64,000 bases of DNA from assembly GCA_050575255.1 (NCBI GenBank), contig JBNZDD010013721.1:4765196-4829195 (forward strand), read 5' to 3'. The position numbers were made by a program. Source of the DNA: Harriotta raleighana. Taxonomy: Eukaryota. Shown here in pieces: positions 49,901 to 61,900 of the stretch (the stretch's first letter is position 1; each line of letters starts with the position of its first letter).

Positions 49901-52900
49901 GTAGTGGTGACAGACATGAATCTTGGACTTTTAAAAAATTGAAAATCTTACAGGTAATTCCAGAAGGAATGAGCTAAAAAATCTGAGGTTGGGGCTTGAA
50001 CTTGCAACCTTCTGTTTCTTAAGAATAATAGTATGAATTGTACAGTACATAAAACCTTCCGAAAGTGCCAGAGGATCTCATTTCATCTCACAGTGAAAGT
50101 GGCTTCAAGGCTGAAGTTATTAGTGCCTCAGTAATAACCTGACATTATCAATTAAATTGTTAATCTAAAGCAAATTCATTACATAAATCCTTCATGAACT
50201 AATGGGCACATCGTTTAAACTGTCTGTCCATCTCATTTCTGGAACCAGAGTCCGAATGGCACTGAATTGATTGTATCAGCCAATGTCATTTATTTCCATC
50301 TGTTCACTTGGAAGAAGACTGTAAATAGCGTAATCAAATACAGCTGTCTCGCATTTCATAAAAGCAAACTCTAATATGCTTTGATTGAGTAAAATCATAA
50401 AACTGAAATTCTATCCCTTTGGGTGAGACGACAAGTATTCAAGCGAGCGTTTCCGGGAAAGACAAAACCTTAGGCACATTTCCTTACTCCGCATACCTCT
50501 GTTTACCAAGCAGTAAGTAAGAACCCAGGTGTTAGTCAGTGGCAGATCAATTTCCTGGGGTAACAATCCCTTCCCCCCCCAAATTCAATAAATAAAATTA
50601 ATAATTTGGTTACTCAATCCACGACCGTTTGTGGGAGATGGCTGTGCGCAATTGTCTGTCACATTTCACACCCAAAATACAGTGAATTCACTGTGAAGTT
50701 CTTTGAGAAATCTCAACATCATGATAAGGTGCTCTATCAAATGCAAGGTTTATTATTCTTATTAAATTTGTGCCAGATCCTCCACTAGAGATATCTCCAA
50801 TTCCTGGCTCTCTGTTGTAAATAATAATAATCCTTGGATTTGAGATGGCGCTTTTCACAGCACTTCAAAGCACTTCACAGAAGATATTGTAAAGTAAATT
50901 CACTGTATACAGTATTTTCCATAATTCAACTTCAGGTAATTTTCCAGTTCCTTTTTGAAGAACATCAGTCTCCGTAACCCTTTGTGGCAAAACGTCTTAT
51001 GTTCCAGAACACTTTCAGTCAATCTCCTCCTGAACAACAATAAAACTTGGCCTCTGACTTTACATCCTCAGTTTAGACTGATGTGTTTTGCCTACAAAAT
51101 CCACACTCCACTTTACAGTAAACCATGTGAAACAGGATTCCTTTGCAGAAGGAAATTTGCCTCTTTAAGCCCCAGTACTTCACTAATTGATTAGATGAGT
51201 GTCAATTGATGGACGTTGTGATATTAGGCTTCAATGCCTTGTGAGCTAATTGCCTCCACACACGTGCTCCCTGAACACCTGTATATCCTCTATAAATGTC
51301 TGTCAGGTGAGTGCAGGCTTAGCCTGGGAGAGGTTTCAACACTTTGAGTCCTGATGGCTGTGTCAAGAGAGGTGTGCTCACTGAAGGCTGTGCTGGTTGT
51401 CCAGGAGCAGCCTGTGAGTGAGGAGCAGGCCTGGGCTTTGTGCTATCAGAGCTGCCAGAGCTTGTGCAAGAGGCTCAACCTGAGCCAGGAACAGGGAGAA
51501 CCCCAGCCCCGCTTCCAAAGAGTTGGTGACTTGACCTTGTTCCAGGATGGTTCTGTCGAGTATGTTCCAGCCAATGGTAACTATTCCCTAGCTCACCAGT
51601 TATATCTTTGTGAGATATACTGCTAAGTTTAGTTATTGTGGGTTTGTAGTGGGGGGCTTACAGCAGTTCTGCCCCTGCTTTCTGGAGCTCCATCATGATG
51701 TCTCTCCACCTTTCCCTCTCCCTCCTATCCCTAGTGTAAAACCAGTGATTCTGTCAAGCTTTCCCCTTCCATCTTCTTCAGCTCCCTTGCCTCCCCCCAC
51801 TCTGCTCGGGAGCCCAGATATCGGGGTGAAGCACTTTGAGATGTTGTCCTGATGAGATAGCCACTGTATAAATTTATTGTATTATTAGTGTTGGTTGTAT
51901 TCAGACCCTGTGTGTGTTGGGGGTTGTAAAGTTGTGTAGTGTCTGGTCCTTCTGCTCTGCAATTAGACATCAGTTTGTGGCTGACACTCAGCCAATGGAC
52001 CCACTACCTGGCCATGTGAGGAATGAGGCTATAATAATAATTCTTGCATTTGATATTATCACTTCTTTGAGATGTTTCAAAGCACTTCACAGAATATACT
52101 GTAAAGTGAATTCACTGAATATTTTGTGGCTGAAATGCTGCAGCCAATTGCGCACAGCAATGTCCCACAGACAGTCATGGATGGAAGTGACCAATTTGGT
52201 ATTTTTTTAAAAATGTTTTCAAGGGAATGGTTAACCCCGGAAAAAGGGATCCGTCACTCAACTAAGGATTGGGTTCCTATGTATTACTACACAAACAGAG
52301 GAGCATGGGTGGAGTCGCAAAGTTTGCCTAAGGTTATGCCCCAGCCTGGTATCGAGCCCTTGCTTGTGAGGTGAATGAAGAATACATACATTGCCCAGCA
52401 TAGACCATCAGATCACATACCAAAGCAAGCCTCAAACTCCTCAAACATGTTCAATGAAAGCAATAACTTTTGTACAACTGTAGATCCAGGAAGAAACTTG
52501 CACAAAAATCGACAGGTTTAATGGATGATGAGCTATTAACAACCTTGTCTAATATAAATCTGTTTCCCTTTCAGGCGGCCTTGGGAGGCCATGCAGAGAG
52601 GAGGAGGTAATTGACTTTCCTTTTTAAACGACATCCAAACCAATTGTCTGAGCAGACGAGCCTGAAAATGAAAAGCTATTAAATATACCAAGGTTGCCCT
52701 GATGGATTGCTGCTCTCTTTGCCCTGTGGTAGCCCGTTATGGCCCTTGATTTCCGTGGCAGAGGTTCACTCTCTCCATTCCCATTCCCCCTCGTGCAAAG
52801 CAAGAGAAGCCTGAAGGTTATTTGTATTGAGATGTCTCTGGGTGAGGCTGGCCCAGGGATCTGGTATCAGTATTAATTATTCCCGGGGTTAGATGGGAAG

Positions 52901-58900: not shown

Positions 58901-61900
58901 ACGATCTAATGTGTGTGTCTCCAATAGGACCTTGATGTAGGTGAAAATAGGTTACAGGAAAAACCAATTTTAAATCTAGTTTTCACTTCATCAGGCGTTT
59001 CGACCGCTCCTTCGGTCACCTTTTTCCCCGTCCCTGGCTCTCCCCCGGGATCCGTTATTGTGAAGCGATCTGAGATGCTGCCCGGTGCGGAGGGCGCAAT
59101 ATAAATTGAAGTAATTGTTGTTGTAGCACTGAAATCTAAACTTTTCCCAGTCAAAAGTCAAACTTGTAGCCATTGGCTTGAAGACTTTGGGCTTAGCATC
59201 CCATGGCACTGAAACCAGGTGATCAAACTCCCATTGGAGAAAACTCTTTCAAATGTGCAATTCCTCCATCTCATTATAGACGTAGTTCCACTTCAATGTA
59301 TGCATCTCCCAATCAACTTCTTCCAACCGTTGACTGTGAGGAAGGTGGAGTCCAGTATAAGGACAGAAGCCTGCAGATACAGCTGGAGAAAAGCATTGCA
59401 CTCCTCCAGGTAAGATGGCAATTCACAGATATCCCATGGAGGAAATTCTGGATGGATGTGACCAAATGGTCCTTTTTCACCCAACCCATCTTGTGATTAC
59501 AGAGGTGAGAAGAACTTTTGCTCAGAGGGTTTTATAACATGAATCCCTTCCCACAAATTACCCAAACCACTGCTGAGCAGCATTCAAATGGAATTGGTTG
59601 GTGGATAGGGGAAATAAAGGTAATTGGTAGAGATTAGAGTGTGGAAACTCCAGTGGAAATGAGCATCAGAGCAGAACTGCCTCTTTCTGTCCAGCATAAC
59701 TTCAATAATTTTAACAACCACACAGAAAAGGTCCCAGAGCATAAGATGCTACCCTATACGATGTATGATTATCTACTTTTCTATCGGTGGTTTGTCTATA
59801 AGATGATGATGTCCTCCTACAGGTGGAAAATTCACGGTGTGGATAAAGAACTAGAAGGTGCAGTTGGACAGCGTCTTCGGCTTAACAGTTGTTGAGCTGC
59901 ACACACTTGTCCAGATCACATGCAAGTCGTGTGTGAGGTAAGTGTAGAAGATGGACTTTCTCCAGGATTATAATGAGGGGGAGGATATTAAAAGTACTGC
60001 ATAGTGAAAGCTCCGAGAAGTGATGGAGCTGGAAATTGAGTGTGAATCAATGTCACATGTTAGCCTCTGGTCTGAACTGAAGTTCAAGCCCATTTTGGAA
60101 TGGATCGACAAAATAACAGTTAAAGTAACTGGGAAGTGTGTAAAGTGTGGAATAACCCGTAGGATGCTCCATAAACCCGATTGTCCAACACCCTGGGATG
60201 TTTTACTGATGTGCGAGAATACTATACAGTGCAATTTGTTGTTGCAAATTTCATGCTTGTATTCCTAGAGTATTGCTGGTGCCTGTTGCTGTCCACCTGA
60301 TTGCTTCCTTTAAGGAAGATCACCTGGACCGACGTGTACGAGGAATTGTTTGAGTAACAAAATCCATGAATGAAAACATCCACTCCTGCCACTTGAGGCC
60401 ATCACAGCTGAAATGAAAGCCGTGGTGTGTGTGTGCGCATTTTGCTGAGTACAGCATTCCTCTTGACCTGTACAGTTTTTTTTATATAAACTTTGATGAT
60501 ATTGCACCAGAGAGAGATTTTATCTGAAGTGGAAGCACAATCCTTTGGATACATAATCTATTCTGGGAACATTATTTAATAATATTTTTGCTTCAAGACT
60601 TGAACTGAGCAGCGGTCCATGATGGAGCTTATTTATACTTGCTAGCTCTAACTTGTTAACTTGAACTGTAAGCAAGTTTGGATGAAAAATGTACGATTCC
60701 CACAAAAGATTCTCATGATGGGTGCTGCAAGATGAAACGTTTAACTGGCTTCTCATCCACGACAACCCAGATGGTTTCTACAATGATCCTATCGCATTGT
60801 GAATGGTCAAAGGAAACTCGACACCATTTTGAAAAGGATTCTTTGCTGAAGTGACTCACTTTGTTTCAATCGAATTTGAATCTAGATTTGGAAGTTTTAT
60901 TCTGACACATTTTGTTTTCTTTCCACAAATCTAGCTTTAATTTTTAGATTTAAGGAAATGGTGATATTGACACTACCTTTGCTGAGTCTTTAATCTTAAA
61001 ATTGTGCAGTGAAACTTGTGTAGCATTGAATTGCCTGATTAAGACAAAGGTAAATTTATGGCTTGCTGTCCTCTCTATAGTGTTCTTTTGATAGGATCAA
61101 GGTGAAGTATGAGCTAGTTTATATTGGTCTGCAGTTAGTCATAGTTTGATCCAAATGGAGAGACTGCTTTTCTTCAGTCAATTAGTCCTTTTTTACTGAT
61201 GTGGCTTGTATTTCTGAACGGACATTGTAAATTGTCACTTTACGTTTTATAAATGTTTTTGAACACCGACCAGTAAACACTTGTCCCACACAGCTGCCAG
61301 GTGGAATTTGTTGTAACTATAGTAATGGATATTGTGTTCACAAACAGCTCACTGTTTAGTCACTAAATTTGTATCCCAATTTCACCCCTCTGATGTACAC
61401 AGCTCCATGAAGCTTTCTTTCACTCGAAAGGATCTAATTTGCTTTAAAATGGGAAGGGGAGTTTTATCCTATTTATTATTCTGCTTATGTAAAATACTCA
61501 AGTGTTTGAAAACATGTTGAAGTATGTACATAATAAATAATTGGCTATTTTTGTACAATCCATTTGATGGAAGTAAATGATTTACACTGAAGCCCTTAAT
61601 TTGGGAGGATGGGAGGTGCACATTATTTAAGTATTGCTGCAGTCTCTGTATTGGAATATATCTTAATTTATATCTTTCAGCATGATCTTTTTTTTTTCTG
61701 TCATCTCTTGATTTTTCCTAGAGTTTATTCCATGGTGTTAAACTGGTTGTCATTTATTTTACACTGCTCTGTTTTCCAGGTTTTATAGTTGCATTTCTCT
61801 TCAACTGAACTTGCGTTTATTTCAGTTGGGCAGAGATGTGAAATGTGATCACTCCAACAAAAATGAAGTCAGTCCGAACACATGCAAGACATAACACCAT

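What the first reader, a model, noticed from the sequence alone, without database searches (positions are those of the whole stretch)
51354..59937. Candidate third vertebrate Spire paralog beside a third Piezo and PIGT
Seen: 15 exons encode KIND, four WH2 positions and half a FYVE-type finger in Spire order, but the sequence is far from Spire1/2 and only about 523 aa. Established: mammals have two Spire genes; PIEZO1 and SPIRE2 are both at human 16q24.3, PIEZO2 and SPIRE1 both at 18p11.2, and PIGT is at 20q13, part of the same paralogon. Inference: this is the third surviving Piezo-Spire block from whole-genome duplication, so a little-characterised Spire ohnolog that I know of no human counterpart for.
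Basis: partly seen in the sequence, partly recalled or inferred. Interest (0 to 1): 0.82.

Follow-up and report, generated by a model that had tools for sequence, protein, structure and literature searches.

The report
SPIRE3 gene of a cartilaginous fish
This is a real, intact gene for SPIRE3, the third vertebrate Spire actin-filament starter that mammals have lost; it is already described in print, and here, in a cartilaginous fish, it carries a cut-down zinc finger.

Summary
The gene is real. On the + strand, 16 GT-AG exons run from the ATG at 51354 to a TGA at 59893-59895. They encode, in Spire order, a KIND domain, four WH2 positions (the third degenerate), a Spir-box-like helix and only the first half (C1-C4) of the FYVE-type finger.

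Annotated shark proteins end where my model ends.

Piezo lies head-to-head upstream on the - strand, and the last PIGT exon lies tail-to-tail downstream.

The nearest named relatives are predicted "protein spire homolog 1-like" proteins of five sharks. More distant relatives come from coelacanth, a frog and non-euteleost teleosts.

A tree and AU tests reject placing the shark group with SPIRE1 (p 0.0013) or with a SPIRE2-like fish protein (p 0.0004).

SPIRE3 was named in 2019 and 2024 and Piezo3 in 2026. I did not find in print the Piezo-SPIRE3-PIGT adjacency or the loss of half the zinc ligands in cartilaginous fishes.

Without an outgroup, orthology to bony-vertebrate SPIRE3 rather than a fourth ohnolog is not settled.

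The parts
51354..51576 (+). Exon 1: start codon and the N-terminal part of KIND; ends in phase 1
   Evidence: Pfam KIND 4e-13. SPIRE1 KIND structures 3.3e-10. 48% identity to a shark ortholog. GT donor.
52575..52606 (+). Exon 2: 32 nt, a KIND loop
   Evidence: AG/GT sites and restored frame. Too short for a significant match.
53400..53558 (+). Exon 3: the KIND core, with the acidic stretch that in SPIRE1 contacts the formin tail
   Evidence: Pfam KIND 9.5e-14. SPIRE1 KIND 7e-8. 67% identity to the Pristiophorus ortholog.
54028..54141 (+). Exon 4: the C-terminal helix of KIND. It is separate from exon 3, as reported for SPIRE1 and SPIRE3 but not SPIRE2.
   Evidence: Pfam KIND 1.4e-6. Best match is a bony SPIRE3-type protein, 44 bits. 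Gene-structure statement from the passage read.
54673..54729 (+). Probable linker exon 4b: 57 nt, phase 0 to 0, with a tandem acceptor also possible at 54676
   Evidence: Best of 34 AG..GT in-frame candidates in intron 4. Score 31-33 against shark linkers, versus a maximum of 24 among 29 candidates on the reverse strand. It matches the right place in two shark proteins, but only near the shuffle maximum. DNA seen.
55147..55311 (+). Exon 5: WH2-A and WH2-B
   Evidence: 68 bits to the shark ortholog and 67 bits to SPIRE1. The first motif matches an N-WASP WH2 at E 0.0036.
55456..55527 (+). Exon 6: the WH2-C position, degenerate
   Evidence: Scores 47-64 to 4 of 4 shark proteins, against shuffle maxima of 35-41. 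No significant match to SPIRE1 or bony SPIRE3.
56130..56256 (+). Exon 7: WH2-D; ends in phase 1
   Evidence: 40 bits to shark, 37 to bony SPIRE3-type, 35 to SPIRE1. No solved structure matched.
56509..56612 (+). Exon 8: variable middle region; model only
   Evidence: AG/GT sites and phase. No match above shuffles in 9 of 9 proteins tried. With exon 9 it forms a 180-nt in-frame pair, so skipping both keeps the frame.
57103..57178 (+). Exon 9: variable middle region; model only. No recognisable myosin-5 binding motif.
   Evidence: AG/GT sites and phase. The only alignments are chance matches elsewhere in the proteins.
57383..57528 (+). Exon 10: 146 nt, brings the frame to that of the Spir-box exon
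   Evidence: tblastn against Pristiophorus 4.4e-7. blastp 1.7e-9.
57702..57806 (+). Exon 11: Spir-box-like helix
   Evidence: Scores 90-111 to the 3 sharks that have the region. 40 to SPIRE1 against a shuffle 95% level of 35.
57953..58018 (+). Exon 12: first half of the FYVE-type finger, with ligands C1-C4
   Evidence: 77% identity to Pristiophorus; 37 bits to SPIRE1. Ligand columns.
58287..58314 (+). Exon 13: the place of ligands C5 and C6, both replaced by valine
   Evidence: 78% identity over 9 residues to Pristiophorus. 3 of 3 sharks with this region also lack C5 and C6.
59280..59409 (+). Exon 14: holds a short C-M-H-L-P motif shared with bony SPIRE3-type proteins
   Evidence: tblastn 4.8e-8 to Pristiophorus. 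31 bits to Pelobates versus 20 bits to SPIRE1.
59823..59895 (+). Exon 15: last coding exon, with the TGA stop at 59893-59895. An ATTAAA lies at 59987.
   Evidence: 43% identity over 23 residues to the C-terminus of the Chiloscyllium protein, ending at the same place. ATTAAA.
1..41288 (-). Piezo gene. Its 3' end is cut by the window edge. Its first coding exon is near 41130-41288, head-to-head with the Spire gene and about 10 kb away.
   Evidence: Piezo Pfam families in 24 of 449 ORFs. Two exons are closer to Piezo2 than to Piezo1 structures: 132 vs 81 bits and 102 vs 93 bits.
62626..63036 (-). Last coding exon of PIGT (Gpi16), tail-to-tail with the Spire gene
   Evidence: PF04113 at 2.9e-23, profile positions 497-552 of 571.

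Best explanation
The region is the SPIRE3 gene of a cartilaginous fish, sitting between Piezo (most likely Piezo3) and PIGT.

Shown:
- An open, canonically spliced 16-exon gene.
- Domain order: KIND, then WH2-A, WH2-B, a degenerate WH2-C and WH2-D, then a variable middle region, a Spir-box-like helix and half a FYVE-type finger.

Inferred from what is established for SPIRE1, SPIRE2 and fly Spire (passages read):
- KIND binds the basic tail of an FMN-type formin.
- The WH2 row binds actin monomers and starts filaments, which the formin then elongates.

The membrane end of the protein differs from the family norm. Four of the eight zinc-binding cysteines and the whole C-terminal flank are missing, in this gene and in all three shark proteins that have the region. 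No myosin-5 binding motif can be recognised. The most likely consequence is that the canonical two-zinc FYVE_2 fold, and with it Rab and membrane docking, is lost or much changed. The protein would then act as a formin-linked nucleator that is not anchored to vesicles in the usual way. That last step is inference only.
For: Gene structure: 15 introns, all GT-AG, with consistent phases and a stop shared with shark proteins.

KIND: Pfam hits in three exons and SPIRE1 KIND as the best solved structure.

Exon matches: shark 'protein spire homolog 1-like' proteins give the top score in 11 of 15 exons. One exon is best against a bony relative and three are too short or too variable to match.

Relatives: a search with the whale-shark protein found 12 proteins at E<=0.001. 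Five are from sharks. Seven are from Latimeria, Pelobates, Paramormyrops, Hemibagrus and Aldrovandia. None is from a mammal or a euteleost. This fits the published distribution of SPIRE3.

Phylogeny: the tree and AU tests place the shark group outside SPIRE1 and outside the SPIRE2-like protein.

Gene-structure character: exons 3 and 4 are separate, as published for SPIRE1/3.

Neighbour: Piezo is closer to Piezo2 than to Piezo1, as published for Piezo3.

Zinc ligands: C1-C4 are kept, and C5-C8 are lost in 3 of 3 sharks. All eight are present in 7 of 8 bony relatives and in 4 of 4 SPIRE1 proteins that have the region.
Against: - The tree has no outgroup. The three groups meet at one node, so it does not show that the shark group and the bony SPIRE3-type group are orthologs.
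- SPIRE2 is represented by a single unnamed protein. I call it SPIRE2-like only from recall of SPIRE2's WH2 block.
- No named SPIRE3 sequence from the papers was available to compare.
- Exon by exon, bony SPIRE3-type and SPIRE1 proteins score almost alike. E1 gives 54 vs 53 bits, E3 gives 49 vs 48, and E5 favours SPIRE1 at 67 vs 57.
- The published Piezo3 neighbourhood (gnas-piezo3-npepl1) names neither a Spire gene nor PIGT. The identity of this Piezo as Piezo3 therefore rests on similarity alone.
- E8 and E9 have no homology support.
- There is no transcript evidence.
- AlphaFold models of a shark ortholog and of a bony relative were both poor over the finger region: block means of 24-47 versus 50-65 pLDDT. 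The fold question is open.
Confidence: 0.85

Rival explanations
1. A fourth ohnolog. The cartilaginous-fish gene and the SPIRE3-type gene of bony vertebrates would be different survivors of the two genome duplications, kept reciprocally, rather than orthologs.
For: In the unrooted tree the shark group and the bony group are two long, separate branches meeting SPIRE1/2 at one node. The C-terminal architecture differs sharply: half finger versus full finger. The 2019 preprint reports that including the Callorhinchus SPIRE3 changes how the three groups join.
Against: It needs two reciprocal losses instead of one. Exon 14 and the tail share short motifs with bony SPIRE3-type proteins that SPIRE1 lacks: 31 vs 20 bits and the alignment. 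The authors of the 2019 data set filed the chondrichthyan gene under SPIRE3. Piezo3, the presumed neighbour, is reported as one clade that includes chondrichthyans.
Confidence: 0.09
2. A lineage-specific, fast-evolving duplicate of SPIRE1 or SPIRE2 in cartilaginous fishes.
For: NCBI's automatic name is 'spire homolog 1-like'. Exon 5 scores as well against SPIRE1 as against sharks, 67 vs 68 bits. Fast-evolving copies can be pushed out of their true clade.
Against: AU tests reject holding the shark group with SPIRE1 (p 0.0013) or with the SPIRE2-like protein (p 0.0004). SPIRE1 plus SPIRE2-like is supported at 100/99. Related proteins exist in coelacanth, frog and early-branching teleosts.
Confidence: 0.03
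3. A decaying gene or pseudogene. The finger loss and the fast change would mark a copy on its way out, as happened in mammals and euteleosts.
For: It is only 43-78% identical, exon by exon, to shark orthologs. WH2-C and the middle region are degenerate. Four zinc ligands and the C-terminal flank are gone.
Against: There is no stop or frameshift in 16 exons, and all splice sites are canonical. The same shortened end and stop position recur in three shark proteins. KIND and WH2-A, B and D remain well conserved.
Confidence: 0.03

Closest known systems
SPIRE3 of jawed vertebrates (Kollmar, Kerkhoff and co-workers: bioRxiv 10.1101/591974, 2019; Commun Biol 2024, PMC11231147). I read passages only.
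   Same: A third Spire group beside SPIRE1 and SPIRE2. It is absent from mammals and euteleosts and present in Chondrichthyes (Callorhinchus). Exons 3 and 4 are separate. The domain order is KIND, WH2 row, Spir-box, finger. One WH2 is weakened; in sauropsids the third is reported missing or unrecognisable.
   Different: The papers' passages do not mention loss of half the zinc ligands in cartilaginous fishes. They do not mention Piezo or any synteny ('piezo' and 'synteny' gave 0 hits).
Predicted 'protein spire homolog 1-like' of Rhincodon, Chiloscyllium, Pristiophorus and Scyliorhinus
   Same: Same exon-level matches, the same half finger and the same C-terminal end.
   Different: Exon-by-exon identity is only 43-78%, so the window comes from a species outside these five. 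The window's own protein is not in the collections searched. The best hit is an unnamed 83-residue piece at 79% identity.
Mammalian SPIRE1 and SPIRE2
   Same: A KIND domain that fits the solved SPIRE1 KIND. WH2-A, B and D. A Spir-box-like helix. Ligands C1-C4.
   Different: About 39-52% identity in the best exons. No long acidic loop in KIND. No recognisable myosin-5 motif. C5-C8 and the C-terminal flank are missing.
SPIRE-like proteins without the FYVE_2 domain (one Amoebidium paralog; Physarum), as described in PMC11231147
   Same: A KIND plus WH2 nucleator module without a complete membrane and Rab binding domain.
   Different: Those lack the domain altogether. Here the Spir-box-like helix and half of the finger remain.

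Membership tests
SPIRE family | N-terminal KIND domain | tested here: met
   PF16474 in E1, E3 and E4. SPIRE1 KIND is the top solved structure.
SPIRE family | A row of two to four WH2 motifs after KIND | tested here: met
   E5 matches SPIRE1 at 67 bits and an N-WASP WH2 at E 0.0036. E7 matches SPIRE1 at 35 bits. The third position (E6) matches sharks only. Pfam's WH2 model found nothing.
SPIRE family | Myosin-5 globular-tail binding motif in the middle region | tested here: not met
   E8 and E9 show no match above shuffles to SPIRE1, the SPIRE2-like protein or any SPIRE3-type protein. The motif is short and poorly conserved, so a weak form cannot be excluded.
SPIRE family | Spir-box helix before the finger | tested here: inconclusive
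   E11 scores 40 to SPIRE1 against a shuffle 95% level of 35 and a maximum of 43. It scores 90-111 to sharks.
SPIRE family | FYVE-type finger with eight zinc-binding cysteines plus the C-terminal flank (FYVE_2) | tested here: not met
   Only C1-C4 are present. C5 and C6 are valines. C7, C8 and the flank are absent. Pfam finds no FYVE_2 even in mammalian SPIRE1, so Pfam is no test here.
SPIRE3 subgroup | Falls outside SPIRE1 and SPIRE2 | tested here: met
   Tree. AU p 0.0013 and 0.0004. Limits: SPIRE1 is represented by six named mammals and one unnamed tetrapod-like protein, SPIRE2 by one unnamed protein, and only exon 1 of the window was placed.
SPIRE3 subgroup | Forms one clade with SPIRE3 of bony vertebrates | tested here: inconclusive
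   There is no outgroup. The split (shark + bony | SPIRE1 + SPIRE2-like) is supported at 100/99, but it is a clade only if the root lies on the other side.
SPIRE3 subgroup | Exons 3 and 4 separate (fused in SPIRE2) | tested here: met
   E3 at 53400-53558 and E4 at 54028-54141 are separated by a 469-nt intron. The criterion comes from the passage read.
SPIRE3 subgroup | Relatives absent from mammals and euteleosts | tested here: met
   None of the 12 hits is from a mammal or a euteleost. That search reaches only word-sharing candidates, so this is weak evidence.
Piezo3 (the neighbour) | A Piezo clade closer to Piezo2 than to Piezo1, in a GNAS-NPEPL1 neighbourhood | tested here: inconclusive
   Two exons score higher to Piezo2 than to Piezo1 structures; one is about 74% identical to mouse Piezo2 by my count of the printed alignment. 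GNAS and NPEPL1 are not in the window. No named Piezo3 sequence was at hand.

The most novel reading that the evidence does not exclude
In cartilaginous fishes SPIRE3 has given up the canonical vesicle anchor. Half the zinc ligands, the C-terminal Rab-binding flank and the myosin-5 motif are gone, while the formin-binding KIND and three good WH2 motifs are kept. It would then be a natural, untethered KIND-WH2 nucleator with a new job, possibly even a fourth ohnolog rather than the ortholog of bony SPIRE3. Its fixed place beside Piezo3 would give the synteny link to the two genome duplications that the SPIRE papers said was missing.
Probability: 0.3. Interest if true: 0.45.

Novelty: already known. 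Interest (0 to 1): 0.22.

Why it matters
The finding mainly confirms the gene and corrects its model: the true stop, an extra linker exon and two doubtful middle exons.

Two small points may be new. Neither turned up in my literature searches or in the passages I read.

1. SPIRE3 lies directly beside a Piezo2-like third Piezo and PIGT. This matches the recalled human pairs PIEZO1-SPIRE2 and PIEZO2-SPIRE1. It would tie the SPIRE triplication to the vertebrate genome duplications, which the 2019 preprint left open.
2. The cartilaginous-fish protein has a half finger and a shortened tail. That makes it a natural experiment on what the FYVE_2 domain does for a Spire protein.

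Tried and rejected
- a word-indexed search with exon 1 against longer proteins found nothing.
- the profile search meant to bring in SPIRE2 and invertebrate Spire listed only mammalian SPIRE1 (120 shown of 2965 hits).
- The other 81 unnamed hits were left unused, because some may come from people's samples.
- Pfam finds no WH2 or FYVE model in any Spire here, including mammalian SPIRE1, so it says nothing about those parts.
- exon 7 has no match among solved structures.
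- AlphaFold models of the Pristiophorus ortholog and of a bony relative, with 19-row alignments, gave a good KIND but a poor C-terminal region in both. They do not decide whether the half finger folds. I therefore ran no fold search.
tblastn with 12 proteins (5 shark SPIRE3, 6 bony SPIRE3-type and the unnamed close fragment P0001) at E up to 10 found none downstream of 59410 other than exon 15 (59800-59892) and one chance-level match of P0001 at 61808-61864 (E 7.6).
- Left out by instruction: joining the exons. No search, fold or tree was made with a spliced protein. Exons 3, 4 and 5, entered as separate rows, were dropped from the tree as too short.
- No complex prediction was run, since I claim no tested binding.

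Full report
**Scope and limits.** The window is not human. Every well-conserved exon of the gene has shark proteins as its nearest named relatives, and I took no contig for human. No search, fold or tree used a spliced protein, and lengths are sums of exon lengths. The single N at 9664 was left as it is.

**Checking the observation.**
- Stop-to-stop ORFs of the + strand between 51000 and 60600 were scanned against Pfam. Three of the 109 ORFs hit KIND (PF16474), in order along the profile: positions 2-64, 80-123 and 161-194 of 197, with E-values 4e-13, 9.5e-14 and 1.4e-6.
- The best solved structures for the first and third exons are SPIRE1 KIND domains, at 3.3e-10 and 7e-8.
- Reading the DNA and checking it by script gives 15 exons. 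They run from the ATG at 51354 to a TGA at 59893-59895. All 14 introns are GT-AG and the phases are consistent, for 1620 nt in total.
- A scan of intron 4 for in-frame AG..GT pieces found one more probable exon at 54673-54729. It resembles the linker of shark orthologs, scoring 31-33 against a maximum of 24 on the reverse strand (DNA). Against shuffles this is only marginal.
- With that exon the model has 16 exons and 1677 nt, or 558 codons before the stop.
- Exons 8 and 9 have good splice sites but no similarity to anything. Together they are 180 nt, so skipping both keeps the frame. One annotated Scyliorhinus isoform lacks that region.

**The 3' end.** No relative matches that stretch. My last exon (59823-59895) ends with the same short tail and stop position as the Chiloscyllium and Pristiophorus proteins. 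It needs correction at the 3' end, in the exon count and in the length.

**Neighbours.**
- Piezo Pfam families hit 24 of 449 ORFs, all on the - strand. They run from the cap domain at 273 to the first transmembrane unit at 41130-41288.
- Piezo and the Spire gene are therefore head-to-head and about 10 kb apart. No other Pfam domain lies between them.
- The last exon of PIGT (Gpi16, 2.9e-23) lies on the - strand at 62626-63036, tail-to-tail with the Spire gene.
- Two Piezo exons score higher to Piezo2 than to Piezo1 structures: 132 vs 81 bits and 102 vs 93 bits. One is about 74% identical to mouse Piezo2 by my count of the printed alignment. This fits the published Piezo3, whose clade is closer to Piezo2 (section read), but it does not prove it.

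**Relatives.**
- An HMMER scan of 1.84 billion representatives with exon 1 gave 88 hits at E<=0.001. The best is an unnamed 83-residue piece, 79% identical, which reads into the same intron. The next is a 448-residue protein at 55% identity.
- A search with that protein returned 12 proteins. Five are shark proteins, four of them named "protein spire homolog 1-like" (Rhincodon, Chiloscyllium, Pristiophorus, Scyliorhinus canicula) and one "hypothetical protein" (S. torazame). Seven are more distant, from Latimeria (three), Pelobates, Paramormyrops, Hemibagrus and Aldrovandia.
- None of the 12 is from a mammal or a euteleost.
- By blastp, shark proteins give the top score in 11 of the 15 exons at 43-78% identity. 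One exon is best against a bony relative and three have no significant match.
- Against bony relatives and SPIRE1 the conserved exons score almost alike, so the exons alone do not place the gene.

**Phylogeny.** The careful tree has 22 rows and 566 columns: 21 database proteins plus exon 1 of the window. Exons 3-5 were dropped as too short (quick version).
- It has three groups meeting at one node. Sharks plus the window's exon 1 have support 99/100. Bony relatives have 100/99. SPIRE1 plus one unnamed SPIRE2-like fish protein have 100/99.
- AU tests reject holding the shark group with SPIRE1 (p 0.0013) or with the SPIRE2-like protein (p 0.0004).
- The tree has no outgroup, so it cannot say whether the shark group and the bony group are orthologs or two different ohnologs. 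My last database search listed only mammalian SPIRE1. I left the other unnamed hits unused because some may be from people's samples.

**What is in print.**
- Searches for SPIRE3 and its variants found three relevant papers by Kollmar, Kerkhoff and co-workers. I read passages of them.
- They define SPIRE1-3 in jawed vertebrates and include a Callorhinchus SPIRE3. They state that SPIRE3 was lost in mammals and euteleosts, and that exon 3 of SPIRE2 is a fusion of exons 3 and 4 of SPIRE1/3.
- They report that sauropsid SPIRE3 lacks a recognisable third WH2. [quoted passage not shown]
- The window's gene has separate exons 3 and 4.
- A 2026 preprint names Piezo3 and reports it in chondrichthyans. 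It places its human relic between NPEPL1 and GNAS on chromosome 20. It does not mention Spire or PIGT.
- The SPIRE papers do not mention Piezo or synteny (0 hits). No paper in the library holds at least four of the five terms SPIRE1, SPIRE2, PIEZO1, PIEZO2 and paralogon.

**Anatomy and likely working.**
- KIND is compact, about 176 residues over four exons. It lacks the long acidic loop of SPIRE1 but keeps the conserved acidic stretch in exon 3.
- In an AlphaFold model of the Pristiophorus ortholog, KIND is confident, with block means up to 95.
- WH2-A and WH2-B lie in exon 5. The first matches an N-WASP WH2 at E 0.0036. WH2-D lies in exon 7. The third position, in exon 6, keeps only its tail.
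- No myosin-5 motif can be recognised.
- Exon 11 is a Spir-box-like helix. Exon 12 carries ligands C1-C4.
- In exon 13 the places of C5 and C6 are valines. C7, C8 and the C-terminal flank are absent. The same holds in 3 of 3 shark proteins with this region. By contrast, 7 of 8 bony relatives and 4 of 4 SPIRE1 proteins have all eight cysteines.
- In FYVE-type fingers the two zinc sites are cross-braced (established knowledge). Losing C5-C8 therefore leaves both sites incomplete.
- My best reading, as inference: this is a formin-linked actin nucleator whose usual Rab and membrane anchor is lost or remodelled.
- Models of the shark ortholog and of a bony control were both poor over this part, so they decide nothing.

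**Verdict.** However, the gene is the published SPIRE3 beside what is most likely the published Piezo3, so novelty is low. Two things are worth a short follow-up: the Piezo-SPIRE3-PIGT adjacency as evidence for a duplication block, and the half finger shared by cartilaginous fishes.

Noticed in passing
window 7557-9663 and 9665-11771: An exact 2107-nt tandem duplication, with the single N at 9664 between the copies. It lies inside the Piezo gene and doubles one THU exon, which gives identical Pfam hits at 8103-8441 and 10211-10549. It looks like an assembly join rather than biology.
   Followed up: partly
protein P0003 (Rhincodon 'spire homolog 1-like'); window 57383-58018 for comparison: The tail of the whale-shark database protein is the Spir-box and finger exons read in the wrong frame. 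This is as expected if the equivalent of exon 10 (146 nt) was skipped in that gene model, so its 448-residue length is probably an annotation error.
   Followed up: partly
window 54671-54676: A tandem acceptor (two AGs 3 nt apart) sits in front of the probable linker exon 4b. It could give two isoforms differing by one residue.
   Followed up: no
window 56257-57382: Exon 7 ends and exon 10 begins in the same phase. Skipping exons 8 and 9 (180 nt together) therefore stays in frame. A Scyliorhinus canicula isoform (P0091) lacks that middle region.
   Followed up: partly
window 50591-50679, 50864-50925, 52076-52208, 54483-54544: Copies of a short interspersed repeat, in both orientations, lie upstream of the Spire gene and in its introns. 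None overlaps an exon. By recall only, the repeat resembles SINEs of cartilaginous fishes.
   Followed up: partly
window 273-41288, - strand: The Piezo gene is clearly nearer to Piezo2 than to Piezo1 in the two exons tested. Its neighbours on this side are SPIRE3 and PIGT, not the GNAS or NPEPL1 given for Piezo3 in the 2026 preprint. Either the gene order differs in this species or that figure is simplified.
   Followed up: partly
window 59987: An ATTAAA lies 92 nt after the stop codon. It is the only AATAAA or ATTAAA in the 1.6 kb downstream and is a possible polyadenylation signal.
   Followed up: no
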